Source: Centroscyllium fabricii | Lineage: Eukaryota | Reading direction: 5' to 3' | Length of the DNA stretch: 64,000 bases | Assembly: GCA_051313645.2 (NCBI GenBank) | Contig: JBNRSN020000019.1 | Location: 20,646,001-20,710,000 of the forward strand | Shown here: one piece after another, positions 342-37,200 of the stretch | Layout of the letters: every line of letters starts with the position of its first letter | Numbering within the stretch: position 1 is the first letter of the stretch | Made by a program: the position numbers and the translations under genes | Notes under the pieces: model-generated | Seen by the model: only the letters and a program-made list of their open reading frames with translations | Databases searched by the model: none | What the model was told of the DNA's origin: nothing

Positions 342-518
342 CTACTGGGTTTTTTATCTGGTTTTTCGCCTCTCCCGGGTGATCACATGTGTTTGGGTGG
401 GATGGAAAGTTAAAATAAAATTGAGGTTGGGATCAGATCAGCCATGATCTTGTTGAATGGCGGAGCAGGCTCGAGGGGCCGATTGGCCTACTCCTGCTCC
501 TATTTCTTATGTTCTTAG
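342..518 (+). mobile_element. CR1/HER1-type LINE 3' tail fragment
   Basis: Ends in gatcagccatgatc...gaatggcggagcaggctcgaggggccga...ttcttatgttctta, the tail shared with many SINE/LINE copies in this window. Confidence 0.7.
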
Positions 519-519
519 T

Positions 520-3500
520 GGGACTGGTATTTGTGGGGTATTTCCCATTCTGTCTCGTGTCCATCTCTGGACCACTCAGGTCCCTTGTTTTGTGATCTGT
601 CTGTGAGTTTTCCCTCAACTTTTCCTCTTCTCCCCCTTCTTGAGGGCAAAATGTCTCATTTGTTTTCAGAAGGTGCCTCCTGTTCCTGCGGTACACCTCT
701 CCTATCTCAGTTATAACATTGTAGGATCTGGGAGCAACCTGCTGCAAGACTGTGGCCTTCTTTGACCATGACTCTGGTCCTTGAATCTGAACCATATCCC
801 TTTCCTGTAATGGTGCTAATCTTGTAGCAGTCCTGTCATGGTACGTCTTTTGATTTAATTGCAGCCTTCTGGCCTTGTCCGCCCACCCATCATTTCTTTG
901 GTCTGGTGCAGCGTAGCAAGGTATTCTTGTTCTTATTATCCTGCCCATTAAAAGCTCAGCTGGCGACTTGCCACTTGCCAATGGTGCCGCCCTGTATGAC
1001 ATTATTGCCAGATACGGATCTGCATTACTGCTTTCTGCTTTTTTCCGTCTTTTGACTATTTGCACCCCCTTTTCAGCCTTTCCATTCACCTGGGGATAGT
1101 GTGAGCTAGAAGTTATATGTTTGAATTCGTATTCGGAGGCAAATGCCCGGAATTCCTGGCTGGCATATGGGGTCCATTATCTGATACCAGAGTCAAAGGG
1201 ATGCCCTGTCTGGGGAAAAAAAATATTTCAAATGTGTGATCACGCCTCTTGACGTGGTGCTAGACAACAGGGCTATCTCTGGGTAATTTGAATAGTAATC
1301 GATGACTAACAAATAGTCCTTTCCCCCAAAATGGAACATATCTGTTCCCACCTTTTCCCAAGGGTGGTTTGGAATTTCTGTGGTGATGAGGGGCTCCTTA
1401 GTCTGTTTGTATTGATTGGCACGTGGCACACTCACTTACTAATTGATCAATGTCCGCATTCATATTCGGCCAGTACAGTGCCTCTCGTGCCCGCCTTTTG
1501 GATTTTTCTGCCCCCAGGTGCCCTTCGTGTATCCTCCCTAGCATCTCTGGTCTCATGGAGGTGGGTACCACTATTCTGTCCCCCTTGAGTAGGATTCTGT
1601 TTACTACGGATAGTTCCCCTTGTATCGGATAGTATTGCTTGCAGGACCCTCTTTTCCAGCCCTCCTGCAGGTTTTTCATTACTTTTTTTAGTACTGGAGC
1701 CTTTGCTGTTTCACTTGTTATCACTGCCAACTGTTGAGATGAAGCAGGCAGTGCTGCATAGACCATGTCTACGTGGAGATTCACATCCTCCTTGGTGTCA
1801 CTATTTTGCATGCCACATGGTGCAGCTCTTGACAGTGCATCCGCAATGTATATTTGTGTCCCTGGCACATATGTTGGATCAAAATCATAACGCTGAAGTC
1901 TCATCATCAAGCGTTGTATTCTTGGTGACATGTCACATAACTTTTTCTTTATAATTCCTAACAGTGGCTTATGGTCTGTTTCCAGTATAAATTTTGGTAG
2001 TCCATCGGCATATGTGTGGAATTTTTCGCACCCAAATGCCAAACCCAGACATTCTTTTTCAATCTGTGCATACCTGCACTCTGTGGCCATCATAGAACGT
2101 GACACATATGCCATCGGCCTCCATTCTCCATAGTCTTCTTGTAGTAGGACCGCCCCGAGCCCATTCTTGGGTGCACTGGTCGACACTTTGGTCCTTTTTT
2201 TTTGGACAAATTTTTATTTAATAGGGGTTCACTTGCTAAGATCTGTAATAGCCCCTTCCATTCCTGCTTTTGTTCGTGTCCCCATTGGAACTTCTTGATG
2301 CAGCAGCTTTCTCAGGTGCTCAGTTTTTGTGGCTAGATTCGAGATAAATTTCCCTGGATAGTTCACCATGCCAAGGGCCCTCTGCACCCTTTTTTGTCTT
2401 CAGGCTTTTCCATGTCCTGAATTGCTTTAATCTTAGTCTTGTCTGCCTGTACCCTCTCTGTGGAGATCTTGTCTCCCAGAAAAGTTATCTCCTTTACTCT
2501 AAATTGACATTCATCTTTATTTAATTTAAGTCCGTATTGCTGTATCCTCTGGAGCGTTTTTTCCAGCCTGCTGTCGTGCTCCTTCTGTGTGGAGCCCCAT
2601 ACCACCAGGTCATCCACATAGACCAGCACCCCTTCCAAGCCCTCTATAATTGTCTCCACCGCTCTGTGGAATATTTCTGGGGCTAAGCTTATGCCAAATG
2701 GCAGACGCTGGTATGAGTATCTACCAAACGGGGTGTTAAATGTACACAGCTTGGCACTTTCCACGTCCAATTTCAGTTGCCAAAATCCATGGGAGGCATC
2801 CATTTTTGAAAAGAATTTTGCCTCCGTCATCTCACTCACTATTTCTTCTCTTTTGGGAATTTGATAGTGTTCCCGCTTTATATTGGCGTTAAGGTCCTTG
2901 GGGTCCATGCATACCCTCAATTTATCATTGGTTTTTAAGTTGATGCAGACCATTGAATTCACCCAATCTGATGGCTGCTCAGTTTTTTTTATAACAGCCA
3001 GTCCTTCCATTCGATCCAGCTCTTTCCTCAGCTTTTTGCGGAGGGCCACTGGCACTCTCCAGGGTGCATGTATAACTGGTTGTGCATCGTCCCTTAATTT
3101 AATAGAGTCTGTGAAGGGCAGCGCTCCAAACCCTTGAAATACATCCGCGTATCTCTGCATTATATTGTCTGAATTCATGTCCGAATTCTCTCGTAGGTCA
3201 TTTCGTGTTTCATTTTCTCCATTGACTGTGTAAACTCTTTTTACTAGACCTAATTCCATGCAGGCCTTATCTCCTAATAGTCATTTGTGCCCTTCTGGCT
3301 CTATAACAAAAGTGAGGAAGTGCCTACGCTGTTTTACTATCAGCCTCAATCTGCACATTCCTGTTCTCTCGATGCTTTGGCCATTGTAGGCCTTTAAGGA
3401 TACAGTCCTGTTTATCATCTTAGGTTTCACTTTGAGTTTTTTTACATCACCGCAATTTATCAAGTTCGCTTTTGCCCCCGTATCCAGCTTAAAGGGGATT

Positions 3501-4708
3501 ATCATTCCATTTACTTGCAGGGGAGCTATCGAGGCCTCCTTGTTCGGCCCTCTGGGCTGTGCGTCTTGCTGCATCATTCCCACATACCATGATTGAGCTC
3601 CCACTTCTGCAGTCTCTACTTTCACCTCTTTGTGAAAATGTGCTTTTGGGAGAAGTGATTTCTGCCTTTGCCTTTCGTGCAGCTCTTCCCAAATGCAGGA
3701 CACTGCCTGGCTCCATGTTTGTTTCCGCACCGTTTGCACTCGAATGCCGCCATTTTGTTGTACTCACTGGGTCCTCTGAAATCATACGCCGCCATTATGT
3801 TGTACTCACTGGGCCCTATAGGCTCTCGAGTCGTGTGACACCATTGTTATGTTCTGTGGGCCCTCGTGGCTCTCCAATTTCTTCGCTGTATTACATCCAC
3901 CAGAAGGCTCTGCAGCCCCGGGACGTTCCCCTTGAACGGTTTTGTTTGCATCGCTGAAAGCTCACTTGAATGGCACAGCTTTACTGCAGCATCCAATTTC
4001 AACTCGCTGTCTCTCAGCATTCTCTCTTAATTTCTTATCCAAAATTGCAAAGACTATTTGATCCCTTAACATCAATTTTTTTTTAATCTTGAAAATTGCA
4101 TGACTGTGCTTGATTTTTTTTTAATCGGCTAGGAAGACATCAAAGGACTCCCCTTGTTTTTGTGTTCTGGAGTGGAACACAAACTTTTAATAGGTCTCAT
4201 TCTTTTTTGGCGCCCAAAAAACTTCAATTTTTTTTAATAGCTTTGTCAAAGTCACTTTTTTCCTCCTCGGACTCAAAAGTAAAGGTATTGAACAGCTTGC
4301 TTGCCTGCAAGCCCGCAACAGTTAGTAATAGTGCAACTTTACATGATCCTGAGCTTGTGGCTGCCTCGATGGCTGTCAGGTATAGGAGAAATCTCTGCTT
4401 GAATACTCGCCAATTCTCGTCAATGTTGCCTTCTAGTTGAAGATTGGCTGGGGGTTTAATACCTTCCATCATTCGTCGTCAGTACGTTCGTGAGTTTGTA
4501 ATCCTGGTACCATGTAATGTTATTTAGAGATCAGATGGGAGGCCAACACTAAGTTTCAACGGAGCTTCTTTAATCATGTCTTATACTCTGCCACTCGAAG
4601 CCTCAACTGAAGCATGGCTAAGATGGCGTCGGCTGCTGCCACTCAGGCATGACGTCAGACGCAAGACAAGCCTGTACTGTCTTTACGCCAGTCACAGCTA
4701 TCCTTACA
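520..4708 (-). mobile_element. Degraded Ty3/Gypsy (Mag-like) LTR retrotransposon: 5' LTR 4513-4708, PBS, frameshifted gag-PR-RT-RH-INT
   Basis: LTR bounded by TGTAA...TTACA; minus-strand PBS TGGTACCAGG at 4503-4512. ORF fragments: gag (GNIDENWRVFKQRF), protease (FKLDTGA), RT (YVDD, RLPFG), RNase H (YAQIEKE, TDHKPL), integrase (IHEGHLG, VIDYYS, NGKAEK). Many frameshifts; no 3' LTR seen. Confidence 0.9.
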
Positions 4709-6139: not shown

Positions 6140-6528
6140 TTGCCAGTACTCCAGCACACATCCAATCTCAATAGAACTGGATACGAAATTGGCTATGGAA
6201 CAGAAAGCAGAGTGCAGTGGTGAACTGTTGTTTTTCCAGACTGGAGGAAAGTATTAAGACAACTACTCCTTTTGATATATATTGATGACCTGGACTTGGA
6301 TATACAGGGCATAATTTCAAAGTTTGCAGATGCCACAAAACTCAAATGTAGTAAACAGTGAAGAGGAGATTAACAGACTTCAGGAGGACATAGGCTGCCC
6401 AGCAGCCTGTTTGAATAAGCAATTTAACGCAGAGAAGTGTGAAGTGATGCATTTTGGTAGGATGAATGTGGAGAAGCAATAGAAACTAAATGGTACAATT
6501 TTAAAGGGGGATAAGGTGGGGTGGGTAC
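6140..6528 (+). mobile_element. Old CR1 LINE fragment, left half (interrupted by the LTR element)
   Basis: Decayed CR1 RT motifs (tcaaagtttgcagatg = SKFAD; aagtgtgaagtgatgcattttgg = KCEVMHFG). Continues at 9158. Confidence 0.75.
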
Positions 6529-7194
6529 TGTCGACTGCCCCAGCTATGCGAGGGTGTGGTCGACGAAGCACAACCAAAACAAAGCAGCCGGAGTCAGAAA
6601 TTCAACAGAAGAGACACTAATAACCACCAACTCTACATGCACTTCACAGGTTTCAGTCTTTTATGCATTTCACAGATTCCAATCTTCTATGCATTTCACA
6701 AGCTTCACTTCAAGAATCCCCTTTAAATTCTAGGTTTCTGGGCCAACTGGCCGCTTACCACCCAAGGAGTAAGAGAGGAGCCGCTAGTCCAGGGCAAGGT
6801 TCAACGTACTCTCTCCCTTTTGTCCTTGTGCTCTGTATATAAAGGCTGCCAGAGTGATTAGTATCAATTAGAGAATGCGGCCCACCTGGGCTCGCATTCC
6901 CCATGCTTCCTCTGGCTGTTTGGTAATCAGGTGGACGCCATTCAGGTGTGCTGCCCGAGAATGGAAAATCCCCACTCTGCCTCCGTGCCATGGCCACCCC
7001 CATGGTGCTGAACCCGTCGAGGAGATGGCTTGGAAGGTATTGGTCTTCGATTACCTGTCCCAGGGGTCTGCGTCGCTGATATGGTCGGCCATGACGGTTG
7101 CGGTGGGTTTCTAACTCGGTGGAGCACAGAGAGGGGATCGGGGCGCCACGTACCCCTTTCCTCAGCTCCAAACCGTTGCAAGGAGCGCTTGACC

Positions 7195-7588
7195 ACAGGC
7201 ATTCTTTAAAACTGCAGGGGTAGCAATCATGTTTTCTCTCGTGTATCTTGCGTTGATTCGTCTTAAACTTTATCTCACATCCCTCCTCCTGGCACATAAA
7301 AGCAGGCTCTTTAGTGTGCTGGTAATAGTGGATCCTTAAACCTGTACGCTTCTTGAAGGTCTTGTCACAATCTTCATAAGAACCCGTGAAGTATTCTTGG
7401 TTTCCAGGCCGATACTTCAGGTGCTTCTTCAAACGGTCATTGCTAACAAATGCTTCTGTGCAACCCACCTCTGTACATCTGAACCACTTCTGTCCCAAAT
7501 GCTGTTGTGTGTGTCTCTGCAGATGAGACTTTTGGGTGAAAGTCTTCTGACATTCCTGCCGCTCACATTTGTAAGGCTTCTGCCCCTC
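7195..7588 (-). pseudogene. 42sp43: Captured intronless fragment of p43 5S-RNA-binding protein (42Sp43; TFIIIA-family C2H2 zinc fingers)
   Basis: GQKPYKCERQEC...HLGQKWFRCTEVGC...KHLKYRPG...KTFKKR...HTKEPAFMCQEEGC...RKIHERKHDCYPCSFKEC: C-x4-C fingers and the short H-x-x-Y-x-C linker typical of TFIIIA/p43. Some zinc ligands are lost. TFIIIA (gtf3a) is not fully excluded. Confidence 0.7.
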
Positions 7589-7589
7589 G

Positions 7590-8202
7590 ATCTCCTGGAC
7601 CATTCTTAGAGTTGCCCAGAATTGCCTGAGGGTCGTCTTGCCCTGAACCAGGATCCTTGCAACCTGTGTTTTGAGCTTCCCTCATCCTTTTCAAGCTGTT
7701 CGTCATGCTGGACAATATCAAACACTTTGATTTCTGCTGCAGACCCAATGCCATCTTTGTTACTTCCAGAAGTTGTGTCGCTTTTCTTCCAGCTGTCTTG
7801 GTTGCGTTCACAGAGCTCCAGAGGTTTCTGTTCCAGACTGTCCAGCATCCTTCACGTCACCTGCTTGAGATTCAGAAACCTCTTGGAAAGATATCTTCTG
7901 TGGCTAGCAATGACTTTGTACCGACTCTCCTGACTGGCTGCCTGGCGAGATGCTCGTGCACAGAGTCGGATACGTTCGGCACTGGTCCCAGAGGGATAGA
8001 GGGCCAGCAAGGCCTCGTCTTTGGAGCTTGCTTCTCTCACGTGCTTCTGAACAGGGTCATCCTGAGCGCCGACGGTGGCGGCCAGTTTGAAGAGCGTCCG
8101 GAGAACATGTCCCGGGCGCTGCTCCCCGCCAACCCACGGCCGCTTGCAGGCCAGCAGCACGGCCTCGGCGGGCTCCTCGCCGTGCTTCCGCTTCACCCGC
8201 AG
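7590..8202 (-). pseudogene. SLC7A6OS: Captured intronless 5' fragment of SLC7A6OS (Iwr1 homologue), fused in frame to gag
   Basis: LRVKRKHGEEPAEAVLLACKR...LFKLAATVGAQDDPVQ...QESRYKVIASHR...VFDIVQ...DPQAILGNS..MVQE follows the recalled SLC7A6OS pattern (LRVKRKR..EPAEALVLACKR...FxLVATV..QEEPVQ...QEGRYRV...DPDVILCNS). Internal stop at 7852 and frameshifts. Confidence 0.82.
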
Positions 8203-9157
8203 TGCCGTCCTCTCAAATAGCTCAAGATACGATTTGACATCATCCTTGGGCATTAGCTTCGTCAGCACGTCGTGTGGGCTCCTTTTTTTCTCCCGGGCCT
8301 GTAATGTAGCACAAAGTTCAGCCACCGCTCTCTGCAGCATTACCTGGGCCTGCAGGAGAGTGGTGATTGGGTCCTTCATTGCTGGATCCATTTTGCTATT
8401 CAGGGTCCTTCATTGCTGGATCCATTTTATTATTCCTCCCCCGACTGTTCGTTTCTATCCTGCTTTGTCAACACACAATAGCGAGTTAGAAAGCCAGCAT
8501 TCTCCACCATATGTAGACTGCCCCAGCTATGTGAGGGTGTGGTCAACTGAGCACAACCGAAGCAGCTGGAGTCAGAAATTCAACAAAAGAAAAGAAACTT
8601 TAATAACCACCAACTCTACATGCACTTAATGGGTTTCAGTCTTTTATGCATTTCACAGATTCCAATCTTCTATAATATTCACAAGCTTCACTTCAAAAAT
8701 CCCCTTTAAATCCTAGGTTTCTGGGCCAGTGGCCGCTTACCGCCCAAGGAGAAGGAGAGGAGACTCTGGTCCGGGGAGAGGTTCGGCACCCTCTCTGTAG
8801 CGAGGTCCAACGTACTCTCTCTCTTTGTCCTTGTGCTCTGTATAAAAAGGCTGCCAGAGTGATTAGTGTCAACTCGGGAATGCGGCCCACCTGGGCTCGC
8901 ATTCCCCATGCTTCCTCTGGCTGTTTGGTAATCAGCTGACGCCATTAAGGTGTGCTGCCTGAGAACGGAAAATCCCCACTCTGCCTCTGTGCCACGGCCA
9001 ACCCCATGGTGCTGAACCTGTCGAGGAGATGGCTTGGAAGGTATTGGTCTTCGATTACCTGTCCCAGGGGTCTGTGTCACCGATATGGTCAGCCGTCGTG
9101 ATGGTTGCGGTGGGTTTCTAACTCGGTGGAGCACTGAGAGGGGATCGGAGCGCCACA

Positions 9158-9822
9158 GTACGTACACAAATCTTTGAAAGCGGCAGGATAAGTTGAGAAG
9201 GCTTATGGGATCCTTAGCTTTGTAAATAGAGCTATGGATTACAAAAGCAAGGACGTTATGCTAAACCATTGTAAATCACTGGTTCAGCCCCAACTGGAGT
9301 ATTGTGTCCAATTCTGGGCACCACAGTTTAGGAAGGCTGTCCAGATCTTAGAGAAGTTGTAGAGGAGATTTACTAGAATGGTACCAGAGATGCAGGACTT
9401 CAGTTACACAGAGAGATTACAGATGCTGGGGTTGTTCTCCTTAGAGCAGAGAAGGTTAAGGGGAGATTTAATAGAGGTGTTCAAAATTATGAAGGACTTT
9501 GATAGAGTAAATAAGGCCGAAGCAATTTCCAGTGGCAGAAAGGTCGGTAACCAGAAGACACAGATTTAAAATAATTGGCAAATGAACCAGAGGTGACACA
9601 AGATTTATTTCCCCTGCAGAGTGTTATGATCTGGAATGCACTACCTGAAAGCGGATTCAATAATAACTTTCAAAAGGGAGTGAATAAATACGCAGAGCAA
9701 TAATTTGCAGGGCTATGGGGAAAGGCCGGTGGGGGTGGGACTAATTGGATAGCCTTTTTGAAAGAGCTGACACGGGCACGATGGGCCAAATGGCGGCCTC
9801 CTGTGCTGTACCATTCTATCAT
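9158..9822 (+). mobile_element. Old CR1 LINE fragment, right half, with 3' tail
   Basis: LGLFSLEQRRLRGDLIEVFKIMK motif and CR1 3' UTR. Confidence 0.85.
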
Positions 9823-10873: not shown

Positions 10874-11668
10874 CAATTGTAAGAAGTCACACAACACTAG
10901 GTTATAGTCCAACAGTTTTATTTGAAATCACAAGCTTTCGGAGCGTAGCTCCTTCATCAGGTGTGTAAAAAAGATTCATTTAAACACAGCATATATACGA
11001 GGGAGAGAGCAATGTAATCTTTCCAACATCACACCTCAGCAAAGAGACATACAAAGCAATCAAAGGTGTTTTAACATATTTTAACATATCTATCAGGCAC
11101 CAGCCTGAGATCAATGAGGTGCAGTCACAAAGGGTCAAATGTTGCAGTCTGGTGTCTGTGTGTAAACCCACAGAATGATTAAAAAAAAAGAAGATTTTTC
11201 TTACTGGAAATCGCAGCCACATCTGTGTAGAGAGTCATCCAGACTCGAGTCGTCTTTGGCTTGTTCTCTCTACACAGATGCGGCTGCGACTTCCAATAAG
11301 AAACATCTTAAAAAAAAAAAAAAAAAAAATCATTCTGTGGGTTTACACACAGACACCAGACTGCAATATTTGACCCTTTGTGACTGCACCTCATTGATCT
11401 CAGGCTGGTGCCTGATAGATATGTTAAAATATGTTAAAACACCTTTGATTGCTTTGTATGTCTCTTTGCTGAGGTGTGATGTTGGAGAGATTACACTGCT
11501 CTCTCCTTCCTATATATGCTGTGTTTAAATGAATCTCTTTTACCCACCTGATGAAGGAGCTACGCTCCGAAAGCTTGTGATTTTAAATAAAACTGTTGGA
11601 CTATCACCTGGTGTTGTGTGACTTCTTACAATTGTCCACCCCAGTCCAACACCAGCACCTCCACATCA
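10874..11668. mobile_element. Penelope-like fold-back: about 315-bp inverted arms around a self-complementary spacer; each arm carries a hammerhead motif
   Basis: 10874-11189 is the near reverse complement of 11311-11634. The spacer 11200-11301 is itself a stem-loop. CTGATGA-a-GGAGC-tac-GCTCC-GAAAGCTT at 11548-11576 (+) and its complement at about 10932-10960. Confidence 0.75.
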
Positions 11669-16328: not shown

Positions 16329-16634
16329 GTGGATGCCAATCCTCTGTATGATAGGTTTCTTTTAGTTTGATGTTGGACAATCTGCCCCCACCTCACCCCT
16401 GCCAAAGTGAATGACATTCCAAGTAGGGTAAAGGGAGGGACCAAAAAGGAGGGGAATAGGGGTAAACCTATCTCTTAAATGGCAGGGCAACAAGGTGCCT
16501 TGCTCCCTTTTTACAGCTGGCAGATGAAAGTGCATCAAGCTAACTCATTTGCCCATACTTTGAGGAAAAGCCTGACCTCCATTCGCCATCCCCCAACAGT
16601 CCTGCTGAAATCGGCAAATAAACATGAAGAGACT

Positions 16635-17490
16635 TAGAACATAGAACATACAGCACTGTACAGGCCCTTGGGCCCTCAATGTAGTGCCGCCCTTAGTCCG
16701 TCTCTGATTTTTCCTGTCCCCCCTACTGTTCCTTCCCCTCCATGTACCTGTCTATCATCCTTTTAAAAGCACCCAGACTGTCCGCATCCACTATTTCAGA
16801 TGGTAGCCTATTCCATTCCCCGACCACTCTCTGTGTAAAGAACTTGCCCCTGCCATCCCTTCTGAATCTTCCTCCTTGAATCTTGTGCTCGTGTCCTCTT
16901 GTTGTCGTTCTTCCCGCCCGGGGAAATAGTCTTTGCACGTTTACTCTATCGATCCCCTTCATCATTTTAAACATCTCTATCAATTCCCCCCTCTTCCTTC
17001 TCCGTTCCAGGGAGAAGAGTCCCAGTTCCCTTAACCGTTCCTCGTATGACTTTCCCCCCATTCCCGGCAGCATCCTGGTGAATCTCCTCTGCACTCTCTC
17101 CAGCGCCTCCACATCCCTCCTGTAGTACGGTGCCCAGAACTGCACACAGTACTCCACATGTGGTCTCACCAGTGACCTGTACAGCTGCAGCATGACCTCC
17201 CGGTTCTTAAACTCTATTCCCCTGTTGATGAAGGCCAATACACCATAGGCCTTTTTTACTGCCTTGTCCACCTGGGTGGCAGCCTTCAGTGATCTGTGTA
17301 CATATACTCCCAGATCCCTTTGCTCCTCTGCTTCACTCAGGACCCTGCCGTTGACCCTATATTCCCTCTTCCTATTTGCCCTACCGAAGTGCATCACCTC
17401 GCATTTCCCCGTGTTGAACTCCATTTGCCATTCTTCAGCCCAGCTCTGCATCCTATCTATATCCCTCTGAATCTTTCTACTTCTTTCCTC
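16635..17490 (-). mobile_element. Young 5'-truncated CR1 LINE with intact ORF2 C-terminus (16723-17451)
   Basis: WQMEFNTGKCEVMHFG...LYRSLVRPHVEYCVQFWAP...FFTQRVVGEWNRLP; (ttctatg)n tail. Confidence 0.92.
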
Positions 17491-19736: not shown

Positions 19737-21945
19737 ACACACAATACATCTGTAACCTTTTATCGGTTGCTACACGTTCTTGCAGTTACAAACAGTATAA
19801 TAATTAGTGTTGATTAGTCTCTGTTTGTGTGTGTGTGCATGTTGGTCATTCACTGTCTCTCAGGTTGTGGCATGCTGTTACGTATTGTGCACCAAGCTGT
19901 GCCCTATTTCCCTCCCCAAGGATTATTCTTAGTTTTGATATATCATCTAGTTCTTTGAAATCTGGGATTGCCAAGCTTAATTTGTCAAAGTATGTTTTCC
20001 TTGTTTTGTCGAATTTTTAGCATTTTAGGAGGAAGTGCACCTCTGTTTCAACCTCATCTGTCAAACAGTGACCGCATATTCTATTTTCTCTTGGCTGCCA
20101 GGATTTCCTCTGTCTTCCTTTTTCGACTGCCAACTGGTGGTCACTTAGTCTGTACCTGGTGAGGGTCTGTCTCTGCTTTATATTTCTGACAGTTGAGAGA
20201 TAGTCTGCCAATTTATAATCTCTTTTTAGGGCACGGTAACATTCTAATCTGCTTTGGCTTTTGGTTACTTTATCCCAATGTTCCAAATAGGTTTCTTTGC
20301 ATTGTTTGATGATTTGGTTCACTCTAATTGGTGTTTGGAAAGCAGTGTTGATCTGAGACTGGTCAAGGTTTGACTGAGTAGGGGTAGTTAGTCTCAATAC
20401 CAACTGACACAGGGGACTCTTTTCTGGGTTCCGCCCTTGGGTTTGGAGGGCTTTAAACTGGAGGGTGTCTGGGGGACTAGATTTAAGGTGATTCCAAAAG
20501 TTTAATGCTCTTTTTTGGATATTTATTATCAGTGGGTATCTGCCTAATTCCGCCCTACATGCGTTTGTTGGTGTTTTCCTTTGGGTGCGGAGGATGCTCC
20601 GGCAACATTCCGCATGTAGGGCCTCCATTGTGTGTTTTTCCCATTTAGCATAACTATGATGACTGAGCGAACCCCATACTTCACTACCATAAAGCGCAAT
20701 GGGCTGGATTACACTATCAAATATTTTAAGCCAGATTTTAATTGGAATTTGGATGTTGTAGAATTTTCTTTTTATTGCATACAGTGCTCTTCGAGCTTTC
20801 TCTTTTAGTGCATTCACTGCCATGCTGAAGCTCCCTGATGCTGCAATGGTTAGACCAAGGTAAGTGTAGCTCATAGCGTGTTCGATAATGGTATCATTAA
20901 GAGTGAATTGGTATTTGTCTTCCTGACATCTGTTTTTTTTGGAAAAATCATGATGTTGGTTTTCTTTAGATTTACTGTCAGGGCCCAATTTTGGCAGTAC
21001 TCATCGAGTAGATCTAACTGTTGCTGCAGTCCCTGTTCTGTGGGAGACAGCAGAACCAGGTCATCCGCATAAAACAGGGATTTTACCTCTCCGTCTTTAC
21101 TCTTATACTCAAATCCTCTTGTAATAAAGGCCAACATACCATTTGCTTTCCTAATTGCTTGCTGTACCTGCATGTTAACTTTCTGTGATTCTTGTACAAG
21201 GACACCCAGGTCCCTCTGAATACCAACATTTCCCAATCTCTCCATTTAAAATATATTCTGCTTTTCTATTTTTCCAACCATTTCTCCACATTAGGTTCCA
21301 TCTGCCATGTTCTTGCCCACTCACTTAACATGTCGTTATCCCATTGCAGCCTTTTTGCATCCTCACAACTTACTTTCCCACCTAGCTTTGTATCATCAGC
21401 AAACTTGGATACATTACACTTGGTCCCCACATCTAAATCATTAATATAGGTTGTAAATAGCTGAGGCCCGAGCACTGATGCGGTACCCCACTAGTTACAG
21501 CCTGCCAATCCGAAAATGACCTGTTTATTCCTACTCTCTGTTTTCTGTCCATTAACCAATCCTCAATCCATGCTAATACATTACCCCATATCCCATGAGT
21601 CCTAATTTTGTGTAATAACCTCTTGTGCGACATCTTAGCCAATGCTTTTTGAAAATCCTAATACACGACATGCACTGGTTCCCCCTTAACTAACCTGCTA
21701 GTTACAACCTCAAAAAACACTTGGATTTGTCAGACACAATTTCCCTTTCATAAATCTGTATTGACTCTGCTCAATCATATTATGCCGTGTTACCACGTCC
21801 CTAATAATAGATTCCAGCATTTGTCCTGCTACTGATGTCAGGCTAACCGGTCTACAGTTCCCTGTTTTCTTTCTCCTTTCTTGAATAGTGGGGTTACATT
21901 TGCTGCCTTCCAATCCACGGGGATCGTTCTAAAATCTGTGGATTT
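18945..21945 (-). mobile_element. Degraded CR1 LINE split by an RTEX-like insertion
   Basis: Tail at about 18945; RT fragments (YINDLD, SKFADDTKLGG, RPVSLTS) at 21100-21945. The two halves join across 19544-21091. Confidence 0.85.
19544..21091 (-). mobile_element. 5'-truncated RTEX-like non-LTR retrotransposon with 9-bp TSD
   Basis: YADDLVLLSP...LYGSEVWG...CRAELGRYP...RYRLSDHQLAVEKGR...RICGHC...VETEVHFLLKC; (ttgaa)n tail; TSD cgtctttac at 19535-19543 / 21092-21100; (tatatg)n in the 3' UTR. Clade label is from memory. Confidence 0.8.
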
Positions 21946-23792: not shown

Positions 23793-24480
23793 CAAATTCA
23801 AATTCAAATTCAAATAGCTTTATTGGCATGAATGGCATCAACCCTTGTTGCCAAAGCGTTTTTACATACACAAAAATACATTTGTAACATACATATAAAA
23901 TACATTTTTAGACGTAATAACAACAGTACTAACAGAGTATACACAACCGCATCCGTAGTAACATCAGTAGATATATAGCTTAAATGCAGTTTCAAACCAT
24001 ATCACAGTCAATGTTGGTTCTTTTCTGCCTGTGTGTGCGTGCATGTGTGCATGTTGGTCAGTCATTTTCCCTCAGGTTGTGGCATGCTGTTACGTATTGT
24101 GCACCAAGCTGTGCCCTGTCTCCTTCGCCAAGGATTATTTTTAGTTTTAGGGTATCATCTAATTCTTTGAAATCTGGGATTTCTAGGTCCAGTTTGTCAA
24201 AGTATGATTTCCTTGTTTTTTCGAATTTTTTGCAATTTAGGAGGAAGTGCATCTCTGTTTCAACCTCATCCGTCGAACAGTGACCGCATATTCTATTTTC
24301 TCTTTGCTGCCAGGATTTCTTCTGTCTTCCTTTTTCGACTGCCAACTGGTGGTCACTTAATCTGTACCTGGTGAGGGTCTGTCTCTGCTTTATATTTCTG
24401 ACAGTTGAAAGATAGTCTGCCAATTTATAGTCTCTTTCTAGGGAGCGGTAGCATTCTAGTCTGCTTTGGTTTTTTGTTGC
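23793..24480 (-). mobile_element. RTEX-like 3' fragment inserted in a (TC)n tract
   Basis: Highly similar to 19544-20270; (tttgaa)n tail abutting ctctctc. Confidence 0.85.
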
Positions 24481-25020
24481 TCTCTCTCTCTCTCTGTCTC
24501 TGCACTGAGTGCTGCGGGGCAAAATCTCTCTCTCTCTCTCTCTGCACTGAGTGCTGCGGGGCAAAATCTCTCTCTCTCTCTCTGCACTGAGTGCTGCGGG
24601 GCAAAATCTCTCTCTCTCTGCACTGAGTGCTGCGGGGCAAAATCTCTCTCTCTCTCTCTCTCTCTCTGCACTGAGTGCTGCGGGGCAAAATCTCTCTCTC
24701 TCTCTGCACTGAGTGCTGCGGGGCAAAATCTCTCTGCACTGAGTGCTGCGGGGCAAAATCTCTCTCTCTCTCTGTCTCTGCACTGAGTGCTGCGGGGCAA
24801 AATCTCTCTCTCTCTCTCTGTCTCTGCACTGAGTGCTGCGGGGCAAAATCTCTCTCTTTCTCTCTGTCTCTCTGCACTGAGTGCTGCGGGGCAAAATCTC
24901 TCTCTCTATCTGCACTGAGTGCTGCGGGGCAAAATCTCTCTCTCTCTCTGTCTCTCTCTCTCTCTGCACTGAGTGCTCTGCGGGGCAAAATCTCTCTCTC
25001 TCTCTCTCTCTCCTTTTTAG

Positions 25021-26402: not shown

Positions 26403-27537
26403 AGGATAGCAAAGATACGTATATCAGCATGCTGTTTATTGACTACAGCTCAGCATTCAACACCATCGTCCCCAGCAAATTGTCTACCAAACTCCTCACC
26501 CTCGGCCTGAACACCTCCCTCTGCAACTGGACCCTGGACTTCCTAACCAACAGACCACAGTCTGTGAAGTTAGGCAACCTCACTTTCCCCCCCCCCCCCT
26601 TACCCTGAACACGGGGGCCCCACAAGGTTGTGTGCTCAGCCCCCTCCTCTACTCCCTCTTCACTCACGACTGTGCGGCTGTCCATGGCTCCAACACGATC
26701 ATCAAGTTCGCGGATGACACCACGGTGGTTGGCCAGATCACCAACAACGACGAGTCAGCCGACAGGGATGAGATCCAGCGCCTTGTGGGTTGGTGTGCCG
26801 ACAACAACCTGGCACTGAACACCAAGGAGATCATAGTGGACTTCCGGAGGACTGGAAGCAGAAGACACACCCCCATCTTCATCCAAGGGGCTCCGGTGGA
26901 AAGGGTGTCCAGCTTCAAGTTCCTCGGGGTCCACATCTCGGAAGATCTCTCCTGGTCACTAAACACCTCCTCTCTGGTTAAGAAGGCCCAACAGCGCCTG
27001 TACTTCCTTAGGAAGCTGAAGAAAGCCAGGCTGTCATCCGGCATCCTCTCCAACTTCTACCGCTGCACAATAGAAAGCATACTGACAAGCTGCATCACTG
27101 TCTGGTATGGTAATTGCACTATCTCGGACCGGAAAACCCTGCAGCAGGTAGTCAAAACTGCCCAGCGAATTACCGGTACACAGCTACCGTCAATGGAAAG
27201 CATCTACCTCAAACGCTGCTTACGGAGGTCTCAGAACATTATTAAAGACCCCACACACCCCAGCCACAGTCTGTTCGCCCCTCTGCCCTCCGGGAGACGC
27301 TACAGAGCAATTTGCACCCGTACAACTAGATTTCAGAACAGCTTCTTCCCCAGGGCTGTCAGCCTCCTGAACTCTAAAAAGAAACTCCGGTACCTGCACG
27401 CCTGATAATGAACTTTACTGTGTGCAATTTGCATGTAATTTATTTATTTTGTTTGCACTACTCTCGGGAGAGTCGAGTCTTCGTCTCGTTGTATTGTACT
27501 AGTACTCTGCAATGACAATAAAACTTGAATTGAATTG
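26403..27537 (+). mobile_element. 5'-truncated Rex1/Babar LINE
   Basis: [13 protein letters not shown]...LSPLLYSLFTHDC...[12 protein letters not shown]...FFPRAVSLLN; (ttgaa)n tail. Confidence 0.9.
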
Positions 27538-30500: not shown

Positions 30501-33500
30501 TTATGTAATGAATACAGTCTACGACATCGATGTTGTGAAACTTTGTGGTGGGTTGTTGTATAGCATTTTAGTTTCCTTTTTATTTGCACCATTCCCTGGC
30601 TTTGAAGACAATCCACTTTCATTTCTCTGTTGTTCTGTGACTTTGCAAGAATTACCCAGAAGAATTGCCAGGTGAACATGCCTGGCCTTGAGTATTGTAG
30701 GGAACGGCCGTTCCCCACTCTTTAAAATCAATAAAATGTCGAAAGATCGCGGAGCAAGCTTTAACAGGTCTTTATTGGTTTCAATCCAAACACGACTACT
30801 CACAAAAGGCGCAAAACCGCAAAGCATCATGGGGCTTTTGACTGACAGCCCGCAGGAACTGGAACTGTTAATCCAACCACCCAAGGGGGAAACAGGGGCG
30901 GGACCAACTCTGGAATGGGGATTATAACGTCCTTGGGAGACCAGAGTGTCTCCCCCTAGTGGCTATGCTACACACGCCCCCCCAGAATCCTCATGAACAT
31001 GATAAGTCAACCTTCGAGGAGGCATGACGAGGCAGCCGCAATGAGTGCGATAGGCCACAGGTGCAGGGGGAGATACCGGGGATCCGCGAACAGGACTGGA
31101 GGGTGGCTGCGCCGCAGGAGTGGGAGGCGAGACCGGAGAGAAACCCTGAGGTGGAGCAGGAGCCGGAGCTGTATCCGGGAGTGGACCAGCACGGGACCCG
31201 CTGGGGGCACGCTCGGGGCAGAGAAATGCTCCTGGCGCGGGGCCCGGGAAAACTGTTCAGGCGAGGCTGGGTCCAAATGGGCCGGTTTAAGCCGGTCGAT
31301 GGAAACGAGGTCCTGTTGGCCTCCAACCGCGAGGACGAAAGCCTTGTCGCCAGCCTCCAGCACCCTAAAAGGGCCAGTAAATGGCGCCTGTAAAGGAGTC
31401 CTATGGGCATCGCGACGCACAAAAACAAATCGTGCCTGGCGGGTATGTGGGATGACCGGGCACCATGCAAAGAGGTGGGCAATGGAAGGAAAAGATGCGC
31501 GGCGTCATTGTGCCGGGCGAGCTGCTCACCGGCTGACCAATTCCCGGTGATGGAGAGGAGGAACTCTCCTGGAATGCGCGAAGGTTGTCCAAAAACGAGT
31601 TCGGCGGAAGTAACGCCGAGGTCGTCCTTGGGCGCGGAGCGCAACCCCAGCAGGACCCAAGGGAGCCTGTCCAACCAATTGGCGTCGACTAGGCTGGCAC
31701 GATGTGAGACCTTGAGGGCGCGATGGAAACGTTCGCAAATACCGTTTGCCTGTGGATGATAAGCAGTCGTGTGGTGCAACTGCGTCCCCAGACCAGTGGC
31801 GATTGCGCTCCACAGCTGGGAGGTGAACTGTGGGCCCCAGTCGGAAGTCATGTCCGACAGAACCCCAAACCGAGCCACCCATGAAAAAATAAAGGCACGT
31901 GTCATGTCGGCCGTAGTGGTGGAAGATAGGGGTACGACCTCCGGCCACCTAGTGGTATGGTCGACGATGGTAAGGAGATGGGTGGATCCCTGTGATGGGG
32001 GCAAGGGGCCAACCAAATCAACATGGACATGATCAAACCGCCGCTCGAGCACCGGAAAAGTTTGCAGGGGAGCCTTAGTATGCTGATGGACTTTAGCGCG
32101 TTGGCAGTCATGACAGGTGTTAGTCCAGTCCCGCACATACTTGTGCAGGCCCGGCCAAACATATTTGGCTGACATAAGTTTCTGAGAAGCCCGCATGCCC
32201 GGGTGTGAGAGCCCATGGACCAAACCAGAAATGCGCCTGCGCCAGGAGGTGGGCACTAAGGGCCTGGGGGTGGAAACAGAAACGTCACACAAAAGAGTCG
32301 TGCCGGCTGCATGAAAATGGATGTCCGCTAGGGTCAGGCTGGTGGACGCAGAACAAAGAGCCTGCAGCTCAGCGTCCGCCCGCTGGCCGCGCGCCATTTC
32401 TGTGGAATCGACACCAACGTGGACCGCATGGAGGGACGGACGGGAGAGACAGTCGGCAACGACATTATCCTTACCGGACACGTGGCGGATATCCGCAGTA
32501 AGTTTTGAAATGAAATTCAGGTGGCGCTGTTGGCGACCTGACCAGGGCTCTGTGACTTTGGACATAGCAAAAATGAGGGGCTTATGGTCCACGTAGGCAG
32601 TGAACGGACGGCCCTCCAAGAGAAAAAAAAAATGCTGCACTGCAAGAAAAAGAGCTAGCAGTTCCCGATCGAACGTGCTATACGAGAGCTCATTTTTCCG
32701 CAGTTGGCGACTAAAAAATGCAAGGGGCTGCCAGGCACCGTCAACCCATTGTTGCTGAACGGCGCCAATGGCATGATCCGAGGTGTCCGTCGTGAGTGAC
32801 AGCGGGGCGCCCGGGATAGGGTGGGTTAAAAGGGTGGCTTCGGCCAGGGCCGACTTTGCGAGGCGAAAAGCCTCAGCCATATTAGCCGACCACAGAAGAC
32901 TATCCTTGCCGGTCCTGCCTCTAGTGGCCTCGTACAGGGGGCGCATGATGGAGGCAGCATTGGGGAGGAACTGGTGATAAAAATTTATCATTCCCAGAAA
33001 TTCCTGGAGCGACTGAACCGAGCTGGGCTGGGGAAAATCTGTGACCGCTTGGACCTTGGAGGGTAAAGGGATGGCTCCCGCCGGAGAGATGTGATGACCT
33101 AAAAAATCAATTTCAGTAAGGCCGAATTGGCATTTAACCGGGTTTACAGTTAGGCCATGGTGGGCCAATCTCTGAAAAAGGGAACGCAAATGCACAACAT
33201 GTTGAGATTCATCCGTGCTAACCACCAAAATGTCATCGAGATATACAAATAAAAAGTCCAAGTCCCGAAGGACAGAGTCCATCAGCCGTTGGAAAATCTT
33301 TAACCCGAAAGGCATACGGAGGAATTCAGAGAGTCCAAAAGGGGTAATAACTGCCGTCTTTTGGATGTCGTCCGGATGGACTGGGACCTGGTGATATCCT
33401 CGGATGAGGTCGACTTTTGAAAAAATTGTTTTACCCGCCAGATGTGCCGAAAAGTCTTGAATATGTGGCACCGGGTATCTGTCCGGCGTGGTAGCGTCAT

Positions 33501-36500
33501 TGAGGCGCCTGTAGTCGCAACACGGTCGCCAGCCGCCGCCGGGCTTGGGAACGATGTGGAGCGGGGATGACCAAGGGCTGTTGGAAGGGTGAATGATCCC
33601 CAACTTCACCATGTGACGTATCGTCAAGGTCTTCAATTAAGAGTCGACGCGTAGTTACCGAAACGAAAGGCTTTTAATTACTAAAGAACGGAGCTATTCT
33701 CCAGACGAACTACTATACAGGAATGGATGGAGCCTCGGTCAGACCACACCTATATCGGGGCCTCACCTGGGGGAGGAGTCGGGGGTGTGGCTGACCTGGC
33801 TCCCAACAGAGTCACAGTAAACAGGGCTGTGCCTAACATCTGCACAGCCCATCATTAGTCATGGTGATACAGTGGCATAACAGATATAGAACGGTTACCA
33901 CATTCACCCCTTCTTAAAAACTTTGAGTCCAGGGGGGTGAATGGATCAAACAGTTCATAATTAGTCTGTCCGGCGGTCGTGTCTGCCTGGAGGACCGTCG
34001 GCGCTCCGGTGTTGGCGGCGGTGCCTCCTGTGTTAAATGGTCTGCATCTGCCGGCGCTGTGACTTCAGGTGGCGGTGGGCTCGGCTGGTCCCCGCCGTCA
34101 GGGTCGTAGTCGGGGAAACTCGGGGGCCATCTTGCGTCTGGTGGTTGATCGACCTGCTGGCCCACAGGGGGCGCTGTGGTGGTGTTTCCGGCAGGGGCCA
34201 GGTCCCTGATGGACACGGTGTAATCACGCCCGCCCGGGAACTGCACGAAGGCGTAGTGCGGGTTAGCGTGTAGGAGCTGTACCTTGTCCACCAGGGGGTC
34301 CGTCTTGTGGCTCCGGACGTGCCTTTGAAGCAAAACCGGCCCCGGAGTCGTCAGCCATGGAGGGAGAGCTGTCCCCGAAGTCGACCTCCTGTTAAAAGAG
34401 AAAATCAGATCGTGCGGGGTGGCGTTAGTCGCAGTACATAACAGGGAGCGGATAGAGTGCAGCGCATCTGGGAGGACTGCCTGCCAACGGGACACTGGAA
34501 GGCCTCTGGACTTGAGAGCCAGGGTGACCGCCTTCCAGATGATCCCATTCTCCCTTTCTACCTGCCCGTTCCCCCGGGGGTTATAACTGGTCGTTCTGCT
34601 CGTGGCAACCCCTCTCTGGAGCAGGAACTGGCGCAGTTCATCGCTCATGAACGATGACCCCCGGTCGCTATGGATGTAGCTGGGGAGACAGAAAATGGCG
34701 AACAGCGTGGTGAAGTGTTTGATCACCGTTGCGCTCGTCATGTCTGGGCAGGGGAAGGCGAAGGGGAAGCGGGAGAACTCATCCACTACCGTGAGGAAGT
34801 ATGAGTTGCGGTCGGTGGAGGGGAGGGGGCCTTTGAAGTCCACGCTGAGACGTTCAAAAGGGCGGGTGGCCTTGATGAGGTGCGTCGTGTCTGGCCGGAA
34901 AAAGTGGGGTTTGCACTCGGCGCAGACAGGGCACTCTCGGGTCATAGCCTTGATCTCTGTGATGGAGTAGGGGAGGCTACGGGATTTGACGAAATGGGCG
35001 AGTCTGGTGACACCCGGGTGGCAAAGGCGGTCGTGGAGGTCCTTCAGCCGGTCTAGCTGGGCACTGGCGCACGATCCCCTGGACAGAGCGTCCGGGGGTT
35101 CGTTGAGTTTGCCTGGTCGGTAAAGAATGTCGTACTCGTAAGTCGAGAGTTCGATCCGCCACCGCAGGATCTTATCATTCTTGATTTTACCCCGTTGTTT
35201 ATTATTAAACATAAACGCCACCGACCGTTGGTCGGTGAGCAGGGTAAAACGCTTACTGGCCAGGTAATGACGCCAGTAGCGCACGGCCTCCACGATGGCC
35301 TGGGCCTCCTTTTCCACTGCTGAGTGGCGAGTTTCGGGTCCCTGTAGGGTGCGGGAGAAGAACGCAACGGGCCTGCCTGCCTGATTCAGGGTGGCAGCAA
35401 GGGCAAAGTCCGAAGCGTCACTCTCCACCTGGAAAGGGATGGATTCATCAACAGCGAGCATGGTCGCCTTGATAATATCTTCCTTTATCCTTGCGAATGC
35501 CGTTTGGGCTTCCACAGAGAGGGGGAAGACAGCAGCCTTGAGGAGTGGTCTAGCCTTATCTGCGAACTGTGGGACCCATTGTGCATAATAGGAGAAAAAT
35601 CCTAGACATCTCCTCAAGGCTTTGGGGTTGTGAGGTAGGGGCAGTTCTTGCAAGGGTCGCATACGCTGTGGGTCGGGGACGAGGAGCCCGTTCTCCACCA
35701 CGTATCCGAGGATGGCGAGCCGGGCTGTATTAAAGACACATTTGTCTTTGTTATACGTGAGGTCCAGCTTAGCCGCCGTGGCGAGAAATTTGGCCAGGTT
35801 GGCATCGTGGTCCTGCTGGTCGTGGCCGCAGATGGTCACGTTGTCCAGGTAAGGGAAGGTGGCCTGCAAGTCATTTTGGTCAACCATACGGTCCATCTCC
35901 CGTTGGAACACTGACACTCCGTTGGTCACGCCAAAGGGGACCCGGAGGAAGTGGTAGAGCTGACCGTTCACCTCGAAGGCGGTGTAGGGGCGGTCGGCTT
36001 TCCGAATCGGGAGCTGATGATACGCCGATTTAAGGTCGATCGTAGAGAACACCTTGTACTGGGCGATCTGGTTGACCATTTCTGAGATGCGGGGAAGGGG
36101 GTAGGCGTCGAGCCCGGTGTAGCGGTTAATAGTCTGGCTGTAATCGATAACCAGCCGCTGTTTTTCCCCAGACTTCACCACTACAACTTGGGCGCGCCAG
36201 GGGCTGGTGCTGGCTTCAATTATCCCCTCCTTCAGCATCCGCCCGACCTCCGACCTGATAAACGTGCGATCCCCCTCACTGTACCGCCGACTCTTAGTGG
36301 CAATGGGTTTGCACTTCGGGTCGAGGTTGGCGAACAGCGAGGGGGGCTCGATTTTCAGGGTGGAGAGGCTGCAGGCCGGGCTCCGCTTTGGGAGGAGATT
36401 GTCCCGGCTACTGACGGTGAGGTGGGGTAAGGTCCCGCCGAACTCCATTGTCACACTCTTGAAGTGGCACTGGAAATCCAAACCTAGTAAGGCTGGGGCA

Positions 36501-36814
36501 CACAACTGTTGGAGGGTATACAATTTAAAGTTACGGTACACGCGCCCCTTGACGGTGAGCGTGACGGAGCAGTAGCCGGTGACGTCCACGGTGTGGGACT
36601 GTGAAGCTAGGGAGACTTGGTAGTTGGTGGGCAGGACCTGCAGTCCGCAGCGCCGCACTGTATCAGGGTGAATAAAACTCTCAGTGCTGCCTGTGTCGAA
36701 AAGGCAGTCGACAGTATGGTCATTAACGCTAATCGGTATTATTGAGTTAGACAGGGTATGGGGCCTGCCCTGGATAACTCTGATTCTGGCTGCAGCAGCC
36801 CCTGCTGATCGGGG

Positions 36815-37200
36815 CTGTGCACAAGATGGCGTCGCCCCTGGCTCGCACATGGAGGGGCCCTGGATACAAGATGGCGTCGCCCCTGGCCCGCAGCTGGTGG
36901 GGCCCCGTATACAAGATGGCGCCACCCCTGGCTCGCACATGGAGGGGCCCTGGATACAAGATGGCGTCGCCCCTGGCCCGCAGCTGGCGGGGCCCCGTAT
37001 ACAAGATGGCGCCGTCCCTGGCTCGCACATGGAGGGGCTCTGGTTGCAAAATGGCGTTTCTGAGGGGCCCTGTGAACGCGCTGGCGGCGCCCGTGATTCG
37101 CACGCAGCGAACCGCGGTGATCGGGTTGGCGGTGCCCGTGATTCGCACGCAGAGAACCGCGGTGGTCGGGTTGGCGGTGCCCGTGATTCGCACGCAGCCG
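36815..37200 (-). repeat. In-frame tandem repeats in the gag-protease linker (CxPGxxPSCIxGP and CESRAPPTRxPRFxA units)
   Basis: About 5 copies of a 45-bp unit and about 3 copies of a 45-bp unit of a second type, seen in both DNA and translation. Confidence 0.85.

What the first reader, a model, noticed from the sequence alone, without database searches (positions are those of the whole stretch)
7852..8391. In-frame Gag-SLC7A6OS (Iwr1) fusion ORF with apparent microhomology at the junction
Seen: a 179-codon ORF runs from the gag ATG through ..SYLELFERTALR directly into VKRKHGEEPAEAVLLACKR. From memory, Gmr1-type gag reads FERTAxR at this point and SLC7A6OS begins ..RTAVLRVKRK, so the junction (about 8197-8214) could match both templates, as expected for homology-guided template switching. 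Iwr1/SLC7A6OS is linked to RNA Pol II nuclear import, and the retained RVKRK motif is NLS-like. Inference: the architecture resembles a gag-onc fusion. This copy has a later stop at 7852.
Basis: partly seen in the sequence, partly recalled or inferred. Interest (0 to 1): 0.75.

Follow-up and report, generated by a model that had tools for sequence, protein, structure and literature searches.

The report
Dead shark retrotransposon carrying two mRNAs
A shark jumping gene swapped most of its own genes for copied pieces of two host messenger RNAs and then decayed, a new example of a known gene-shuffling process rather than a working new fusion protein.

Summary
The 179-codon ORF is real (minus strand, 8391-7852). 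Codons 1-63 are Gmr1-type gag and codons 64-167 are shark SLC7A6OS, in frame. It is only part of a 2.6-kb non-autonomous LTR element (9157-6529; LTRs 10% diverged, 4-bp target-site duplication, inserted into a CR1 LINE). The stop at 7852 follows a frameshift near 7884. Four frameshifts, lost zinc ligands, damaged NLS arginines and substitution rates matching neutral decay argue for a pseudogene. No donor DNA was available, so microhomology was not measured. A protein-based proxy supports weak similarity, but downstream of the junction (gag R-E-K-W against L-R-V-K-R). The recalled RTAVLR overlap is absent in sharks. This is LTR-mediated retroposition with multi-gene chimerism, already described in animals (Tan et al. 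2016). In fish, one cargo gene is ovary-specific and the other maternal, which hints at capture in oocytes.

The parts
9158..9161 (-). 5' target-site duplication, GTAC
   Evidence: directly outside the TG start of the 5' LTR
8512..9157 (-). 5' LTR, 646 bp, TG...CA
   Evidence: 615 aligned sites against the 3' LTR: 42 transitions, 18 transversions, K2P 0.106, 6 gap events
8497..8509 (-). primer-binding-site-like motif (begins TGG, 2 nt after the LTR); tRNA-Ala as the primer is recalled, not tested
8367..8434 (-). tandem duplication of a 34-nt unit spanning the gag start; the first copy creates a 9-codon upstream ORF (8425-8396)
7852..8391 (-). the 179-codon ORF of the finding (gag 1-63, SLC7A6OS 64-~167, out-of-frame tail)
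8203..8391 (-). N-terminal 63 codons of a Gmr1-like gag (SCAN/capsid C-terminal part and zinc knuckle absent)
   Evidence: 22 hits, best E 1.1e-11; alignment; Pfam of 15 of the 22 hits
8188..8202 (-). junction 1 (gag to SLC7A6OS), in frame; the L-R codons 8202-8197 could come from either donor
7592..8202 (-). intronless SLC7A6OS fragment, parent residues 6-212; frame changes near 7884, 7813, 7662 and 7607
   Evidence: runs without gap across isoform-defined borders
7586..7591 (-). junction 2 (SLC7A6OS to P43): 6 nt not assignable to either donor; in frame as now read
7199..7585 (-). intronless fragment of the P43 (42Sp43) 5S-RNA-binding-protein-like gene, about fingers 2 to the start of 6; two zinc ligands lost (H97P, C105G in Heptranchias numbering), one codon missing near 7258
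   Evidence: 6 of 8 hits so named, best 77% identity, E 4.4e-68; TFIIIA 1tf6 residues 39-166 matched in PDB
7142..7198 (-). junction 3 and possible pol C-terminal tail running into the 3' LTR, in the same frame as P43 (weak)
   Evidence: best ungapped match of 1430 positions in Gmr1-type P0032 lies at its post-RNase H end, score 18 vs next 11; BLASTP found no alignment
7153..7163 (-). polypurine tract, 2 nt before the 3' LTR
6529..7150 (-). 3' LTR, 622 bp (first base C instead of T; ends CA)
6525..6528 (-). 3' target-site duplication, GTAC
6360..6503 (+). left half of the interrupted CR1-type LINE (RT C-terminal region)
   Evidence: matches residues 8-58 of another CR1-type ORF in the window
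9159..9512 (+). right half of the interrupted CR1-type LINE
   Evidence: matches residues 70-191 of the same ORF, collinear

Best explanation
This is a decayed, non-autonomous Gmr1-like (Ty3/Gypsy) LTR element of a shark, made by LTR-mediated retroposition. Two spliced host mRNAs (SLC7A6OS and P43/42Sp43) were co-packaged with the element RNA in a virus-like particle. During minus-strand synthesis RT started on the element 3' end, jumped to P43 mRNA, then to SLC7A6OS mRNA, copied it almost to its start codon, and jumped back to gag RNA at a short imperfect similarity (gag x-R-E-K-W codons against SLC7A6OS L-R-V-K-R codons). The jumps may have happened in one round or in successive rounds. With both LTRs, PBS and PPT kept, the cDNA integrated normally into a CR1 LINE with a 4-bp duplication. 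It has since decayed neutrally, and the 179-codon ORF is the stretch that no frameshift has yet hit. SHOWN: anatomy, donors, in-frame join, lesions, LTR divergence, neutral-like rates. INFERRED: absence of introns (from isoform borders), template switching, order of jumps, microsimilarity (about 0.6), oocyte origin (about 0.5).
For: LTR pair, TSD, PBS-like motif and PPT. Collinear LINE halves on both sides. Gag homologues of Gmr1 organisation. Both cargoes are closest to Pristiophorus (80% identity each; P43 tree 94/91 support, SLC7A6OS tree unresolved), so they are host-lineage transcripts. Both cargoes are in the sense orientation, partial, replace the element's ORFs, and cross isoform-defined borders without extra sequence, which is the architecture described by Tan et al.. 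Invariant-site changes of 7/65, 6/44 and 13/91 match about 10% expected from half the LTR divergence. Intact orthologues differ at only 3-5 of about 70 such sites in the ORF part. Five internal indels plus one duplication were seen, against 6.2 expected from the LTR indel rate. The chance of 507 bp free of frameshifts at that rate is 0.13.
Against: No donor DNA and no second copy were available, so shared nucleotides were not counted and dN/dS was not run. The microsimilarity proxy is marginal against the in-frame null (median p 0.057, 9 of 20 <0.05). With best-case scoring only 7 of 20 pass at 15 nt. The homologues are related to each other and are not the donor family. Junction 2 shows no clear overlap. 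All four frameshifts fall within about 280 bp, leaving the first 507 bp and the P43 part open. All junctions are in frame as now read. The leave-one-out rate for intact orthologues is not far below the copy's in the downstream SLC7A6OS part (1/45 to 10/54) or in P43 (7/98 to 14/105), so those comparisons have little power.
Confidence: 0.85

Rival explanations
1. The chimera was once one long open frame (Gag stub, SLC7A6OS, P43 fingers, pol tail) that was useful to the element or host and spread as a family under selection, like a gag-onc transducing virus or maize Bs1. This copy is a broken member, or the 179-aa product is still used.
For: Junction 1 is in frame; junction 2 and the weakly assigned junction 3 are in frame as now read, nominally 1/27 by chance. 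No frameshift lies in the first 507 bp. The gag start is kept behind an LTR promoter.
Against: The ORF part has the neutral rate of change (7/65). R12 and R28 of the basic clusters are changed, and two zinc ligands are lost. The Iwr1 domain is absent. An upstream 9-codon ORF precedes the ATG. Total divergence is about what the LTR age predicts, leaving little room for a long constrained history. No fused Gag-SLC7A6OS protein appeared among hits of 140-447 aa. Tan et al. report 14 of 17 young Drosophila cases whose longest ORF is in frame with the parent, which they attribute possibly to young age.
Confidence: 0.07
2. Capture without homology: non-homologous RT jumps, or end-joining of cDNAs, with the R/xR overlap being coincidence.
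For: Junction 2 has 6 unassigned nucleotides and no clear overlap. The proxy test is marginal under the in-frame null. L at the first overlap position occurs in only 1 of 22 gag homologues.
Against: R follows in 18 of 22 gag homologues, E in 19 of 22 and W in 18 of 20. For the 7 of 20 homologues reading E-K-W, the 9 SLC7A6OS-derived bases 8196-8188 rank at p about 0.001-0.003. 25 of 29 junctions in Drosophila had microsimilarity.
Confidence: 0.3
3. LINE-made processed pseudogenes (or a pre-existing SLC7A6OS-P43 chimeric retrocopy) inserted into an already integrated Gmr1 copy, with deletion of gag-pol.
For: The window is rich in LINEs, and LINE RT can make chimeric retrocopies (general knowledge).
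Against: No poly(A) tail or internal target-site duplication is seen. Both cargoes lack their 3' ends, the opposite of LINE 5' truncation. The element's ORFs are replaced rather than interrupted. Cargo divergence fits the LTR age.
Confidence: 0.06
4. Assembly chimera.
For: Only one copy was seen, and no reads were available.
Against: Matching TSDs, collinear LINE halves, and CpG-type decay and small deletions across all parts. An assembly artefact would not splice out introns.
Confidence: 0.02

Closest known systems
LTR-mediated retrocopies in metazoans (Tan et al. 2016, PMC5131818; passages read)
   Same: Partial sense-strand mRNA pieces replace the internal ORFs between two LTRs; more than one parental gene in one element; in-frame potential; loss-of-function changes in older copies (14 of 21).
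   Different: [quoted passage not shown] This case is a shark, has a Gmr1-type carrier, and its microsimilarity is inferred only from proteins.
Maize Bs1 and HERV-K/FAM8A1 (as described in PMC5131818)
   Same: Bs1: pieces of several unlinked cellular genes inside an LTR element. FAM8A1: a captured gene that became a pseudogene.
   Different: No evidence here of expression or of a multi-copy family; different hosts and carriers.
Gmr1-like LTR retrotransposons (bioRxiv 10.1101/2025.03.03.638093; passages read)
   Same: The gag N-terminus is homologous to proteins with SCAN-like capsid, zinc knuckle and PR-IN-RT-RH order.
   Different: This copy keeps only 63 gag codons and perhaps about 15 codons of the pol end. 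The known SCAN-zinc-finger genes arose the other way round (a host gene took the capsid C-terminal part), and that part is absent here.
gag-onc fusions of acutely transforming retroviruses (recalled)
   Same: Replication-defective genome in which a gag 5' stub is fused in frame to a captured cellular coding sequence.
   Different: The carrier is a Ty3/Gypsy element, the cargo is not a known oncogene, its conserved Iwr1 domain is missing, and it shows neutral decay rather than selection.

Membership tests
LTR-mediated retrocopy (Tan et al. 2016) | mRNA-derived sequence flanked by both LTRs, with integration marks | tested here: met
   LTRs 9157-8512 and 7150-6529, GTAC duplication, collinear target
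LTR-mediated retrocopy (Tan et al. 2016) | internal ORFs replaced, not interrupted | tested here: met
   gag stops at codon 63-65; 1.36 kb internal region, no PR/IN/RT/RH
LTR-mediated retrocopy (Tan et al. 2016) | introns absent | tested here: met
   continuous alignment to both proteins across borders inferred from isoform differences; the parents' gene models themselves were not seen
LTR-mediated retrocopy (Tan et al. 2016) | partial copy without poly(A) or internal TSD | tested here: met
   SLC7A6OS 6-212 of 314; P43 about 42-167 of 356; no poly(A) in 8511-7151
LTR-mediated retrocopy (Tan et al. 2016) | microsimilarity between donors at switch points | tested here: inconclusive
   protein-based proxy only: junction 1 median p 0.04 (0.057 in-frame null), junction 2 none clear; donor DNA not available
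LTR-mediated retrocopy (Tan et al. 2016) | co-transcription from the LTR | not testable with these tools
   no RNA data
Gmr1-like LTR retrotransposon | pol order PR-IN-RT-RH | not testable with these tools
   this copy has no pol; the order is shown for homologue P0032, and PR-IN for P0025
Gmr1-like LTR retrotransposon | gag homologous to SCAN-type capsid gags | tested here: met
   22 hits at 44-63% identity; 5 of 15 scanned carry SCAN matches below Pfam cut-off
functional gag-onc-like fusion gene | cargo's functional domains intact and under purifying selection | tested here: not met
   Iwr1 domain not captured; R12H, R28W; 7/65 invariant sites changed, equal to neutral expectation
functional gag-onc-like fusion gene | expressed fusion protein | not testable with these tools
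   no expression data; no fused protein among hits of 140-447 aa
P43/42Sp43 (versus TFIIIA) as second donor | orthology | tested here: inconclusive
   6 of 8 hits named P43-like by NCBI/UniRef, five at 69-77% identity; no tree against bona fide shark GTF3A was built

The most novel reading that the evidence does not exclude
A Gmr1-derived family in squalomorph sharks spread while encoding one open chimera of Gag N-terminus, the NLS-bearing half of the Pol II import factor and 5S-RNA-binding zinc fingers. It was assembled in oocytes from maternal mRNAs and could have helped the element's RNA or particles enter the oocyte nucleus or ride the 5S storage particles. This would be a retrotransposon counterpart of gag-onc transduction, and this locus would be its decayed relic.
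Probability: 0.06. Interest if true: 0.75.

Novelty: new member of a known kind. Interest (0 to 1): 0.35.

Why it matters
It extends LTR-mediated capture and shuffling of host mRNAs to cartilaginous fishes and to Gmr1-like elements, the lineage that gave amniotes the SCAN domain. The cargo is a record of where the element replicated: 42Sp43 is ovary-specific in fish and slc7a6os is maternal in zebrafish, so such relics could map female-germline retrotransposition in sharks. As a gene it is most likely dead. It would matter much more if the chimera proved to be a constrained multi-copy family.

Tried and rejected
Pfam found no Gag or Iwr1 domain in the ORF itself, only a sub-threshold DUF746 match, rejected as chance. 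PDB sequence search of the ORF gave 0 hits at E<=10. The word-based search with the 65-aa gag piece found none among 93 candidates; the unindexed search did find homologues. No second copy of the element or of its gag lies in the window. ARAGORN found no tRNA gene, so the PBS primer was not tested. The cluster look-up that would have named the gag hits could not be made, so their host species are unknown. BLASTP of the putative pol tail against P0032 gave no alignment; only a weak anchored ungapped match supports it. An alternative register using Pristiophorus M-A-T-A-L (10 of 12 bases could match) needs an extra codon loss and was kept only as a minor option. An alternative register at junction 2 (P43 L-Q-E on window V-Q-E) could not be told from the simple one. 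TFIIIA as second donor (first suggested by PDB) was replaced by P43-like. Long open frames inside the LTRs lie in different frames in the two LTRs and were dismissed. The bacterial genome, phage and plasmid collections were not relevant and were not used; viral and metagenome contig collections stayed unchecked.

Full report
Observation. It sits inside a repeat pair. A 646-bp LTR (9157-8512, TG...CA) and a 622-bp LTR (7150-6529) align over 615 sites with 42 transitions (20 in CpG context), 18 transversions and 6 gaps, K2P 0.106. GTAC lies directly outside both ends, a PBS-like motif starts 2 nt after the 5' LTR, and a polypurine tract ends 2 nt before the 3' LTR. The flanks are two collinear halves of one CR1-type LINE: residues 8-58 and 70-191 of another CR1-type ORF in the window map to 6360-6503 and 9159-9512. 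So this is a true integration of a 2.6-kb element with a 1.36-kb interior and no pol enzymes. No second copy is in the window.

Donor 1, gag. A word-based search with codons 1-65 found nothing among 93 candidates. The unindexed search found 22 proteins, best E 1.1e-11, 44-63% identity. Of 15 scanned with Pfam, 5 have sub-threshold SCAN matches and 3 have zinc-knuckle matches; P0032 has protease, integrase, RT, RNase H in that order and P0025 has protease then integrase. That order is given as the Gmr1-like hallmark in bioRxiv 10.1101/2025.03.03.638093 (passages read). Their host species could not be looked up. A 34-nt tandem duplication at the gag start creates a 9-codon upstream ORF.

Donor 2, SLC7A6OS. 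Fifteen hits among 1481 candidates, 14 of 15 named SLC7A6OS of sharks, rays and a chimaera, best Pristiophorus at E 4.9e-68. A frameshift-aware alignment covers parent residues 6-212 at 8202-7592, with frame changes near 7884, 7813, 7662 and 7607. The stop at 7852 therefore results from the first frameshift. The Pfam Iwr1 domain lies at parent residues 230-294 and was not captured. The window copy runs without extra sequence across a 44-residue block missing from a Cetorhinus isoform and across the point where Narcine isoforms diverge; I read these as exon borders, so the copy is spliced (inference).

From 7585 to 7199 the sequence encodes C2H2 fingers. PDB pointed to TFIIIA-type fingers. The homologue search gave 8 hits among 18 candidates, 6 named P43 5S RNA-binding protein-like, best 77% identity, E 4.4e-68, again Pristiophorus. 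The copy crosses three isoform-defined borders. It groups with Pristiophorus at 94/91 in a 5-row tree; the 12-row SLC7A6OS tree is unresolved, though Pristiophorus is nearest at 80% identity. The host is thus probably a squalomorph shark (inference). After P43, about 15-20 codons resemble the end of Gmr1 pol. This is weak: best of 1430 positions in P0032 and at the expected place, but no BLASTP alignment.

Microhomology. No donor DNA could be fetched, so shared bases were not counted. At the junction, gag homologues continue x-R-E-(K/G/R)-W: R in 18 of 22, E in 19 of 22, K in 8 of 22, W in 18 of 20, and L at x in only 1 of 22. During minus-strand synthesis the nascent DNA copied from SLC7A6OS must pair with gag RNA 3' of the switch point (established retroviral mechanism; direction inferred), so the relevant comparison is L-R-V-K-R against x-R-E-K-W. 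I scored window bases against codon-usage-weighted gag positions and ranked the junction among all offset pairs; 2 of 22 homologues were dropped as too short. For 15 nt, 18 of 20 gave p<0.05 (median 0.008); for 12 nt 13 of 20; for 9 nt 11 of 20; with best-case scoring at 15 nt only 7 of 20. That test is partly circular, because L-R may be gag. Using only the 9 bases 8196-8188, which were not in the search query, 13 of 20 gave p<0.05 (median 0.040), and 9 of 20 against an in-frame-only null (median 0.057); the 7 homologues reading E-K-W gave about 0.001-0.003. The homologues are not independent and are not the donor family. This is suggestive only. Junction 2 has 6 unassigned bases and no clear overlap.

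Function or decay. At columns invariant in six shark orthologues, the copy differs at 7 of 65 inside the ORF and 6 of 44 after the frameshift (Fisher p 0.77); in P43 it differs at 13 of 91 columns invariant in three orthologues. Neutral change at half the LTR divergence predicts about 10%, and none of the three counts is below that (P 0.63, 0.83, 0.91). Intact orthologues differ at 3-5 of 68-70 such sites in the ORF part. In the other two parts the leave-one-out rates overlap the copy's (1/45-10/54 and 7/98-14/105), so those have little power. The changes include R12H and R28W in the N-terminal basic clusters, where zebrafish Slc7a6os has a putative bipartite NLS (PMC4372478, passages read), and loss of two zinc ligands in P43. 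Five indels plus one duplication were seen in the interior, against 6.2 expected from the LTR indel rate, and a 507-bp stretch free of frameshifts has probability 0.13. Against this reading: the four frameshifts cluster in about 280 bp, and all three junctions are in frame as now read. A formerly long open chimera is therefore possible, but nothing shows it was selected. Since total divergence is about what the LTR age predicts, capture probably happened not long before this insertion (inference).

Mechanism. Most likely both mRNAs were co-packaged with element RNA, and RT switched templates element to P43 to SLC7A6OS to gag, in one round or several. The cDNA kept both LTR ends and integrated with help in trans, then decayed. 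42sp43 transcripts are described as very high in mullet ovary and ovary-specific in medaka (PMC4178482, one passage read), and zebrafish slc7a6os is maternal but also broadly expressed. Capture in oocytes is a reasonable inference, untested in sharks.

Comparison and novelty. Tan et al. [quoted passage not shown] This locus meets the structural criteria; the microsimilarity criterion is inconclusive. It works like a gag-onc capture mechanically but fails the functional criteria. A full-text search for SLC7A6OS with retrocopy gave 0 papers. Listings (titles and abstract starts only) showed no report of such capture in sharks, but subscription journals and supplements were not covered. Verdict: a real, well-preserved new example of a known process, richer than first described (two cargoes), most likely a pseudogene. 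Interest 0.35.

Noticed in passing
window 33614-38718: Young Ty3/Gypsy element (minus strand) with LTRs 97.6% identical and an intact 1366-codon gag-PR-RT-RH-IN frame (33914-38014). It appears nested in another Gypsy element whose halves are the ORFs 38649-39743 and 30991-33636.
   Followed up: partly
window 36776-37090: Six copies of a 45-bp (15-codon) tandem repeat inside the gag region of that young element.
   Followed up: no
window 37992-38262 vs 16632-16902: A 271-bp CR1-type 3' fragment, 98% identical to another copy, lies inside the young Gypsy element between its ORF and its LTR; possibly a very recent LINE insertion.
   Followed up: no
window 10874-11634: Long inverted repeat, 307-bp arms 97% complementary with a 147-bp spacer; MITE-like or fold-back element.
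   Followed up: no
window 40014-41649 and 42089-43740 (also 26404-27537): Two copies of an RT + ALKBH8_N-type non-LTR element in inverted orientation 440 bp apart (88% identical), with a third copy at 26.4 kb.
   Followed up: no
window 433-3763: Another, broken Gypsy-type pol (PR, RT, RNase H, integrase zinc-binding part) on the minus strand; unrelated to the Gmr1-like gag.
   Followed up: no
window 60755-63268: Older relative (72% identity) of the young Gypsy element at 34194-36712.
   Followed up: no
window 20017-21000: 327-codon open frame with a weak PNMA (gag-like) match, E 0.008.
   Followed up: no
window 24445-25012: Compound minisatellite: a fixed 26-nt unit separated by (CT)n runs of varying length, 12 copies.
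   Followed up: no
window 46226-49156: Tandem 1.3-kb duplication, 77% identical (46226-47452 vs 47896-49156).
   Followed up: no
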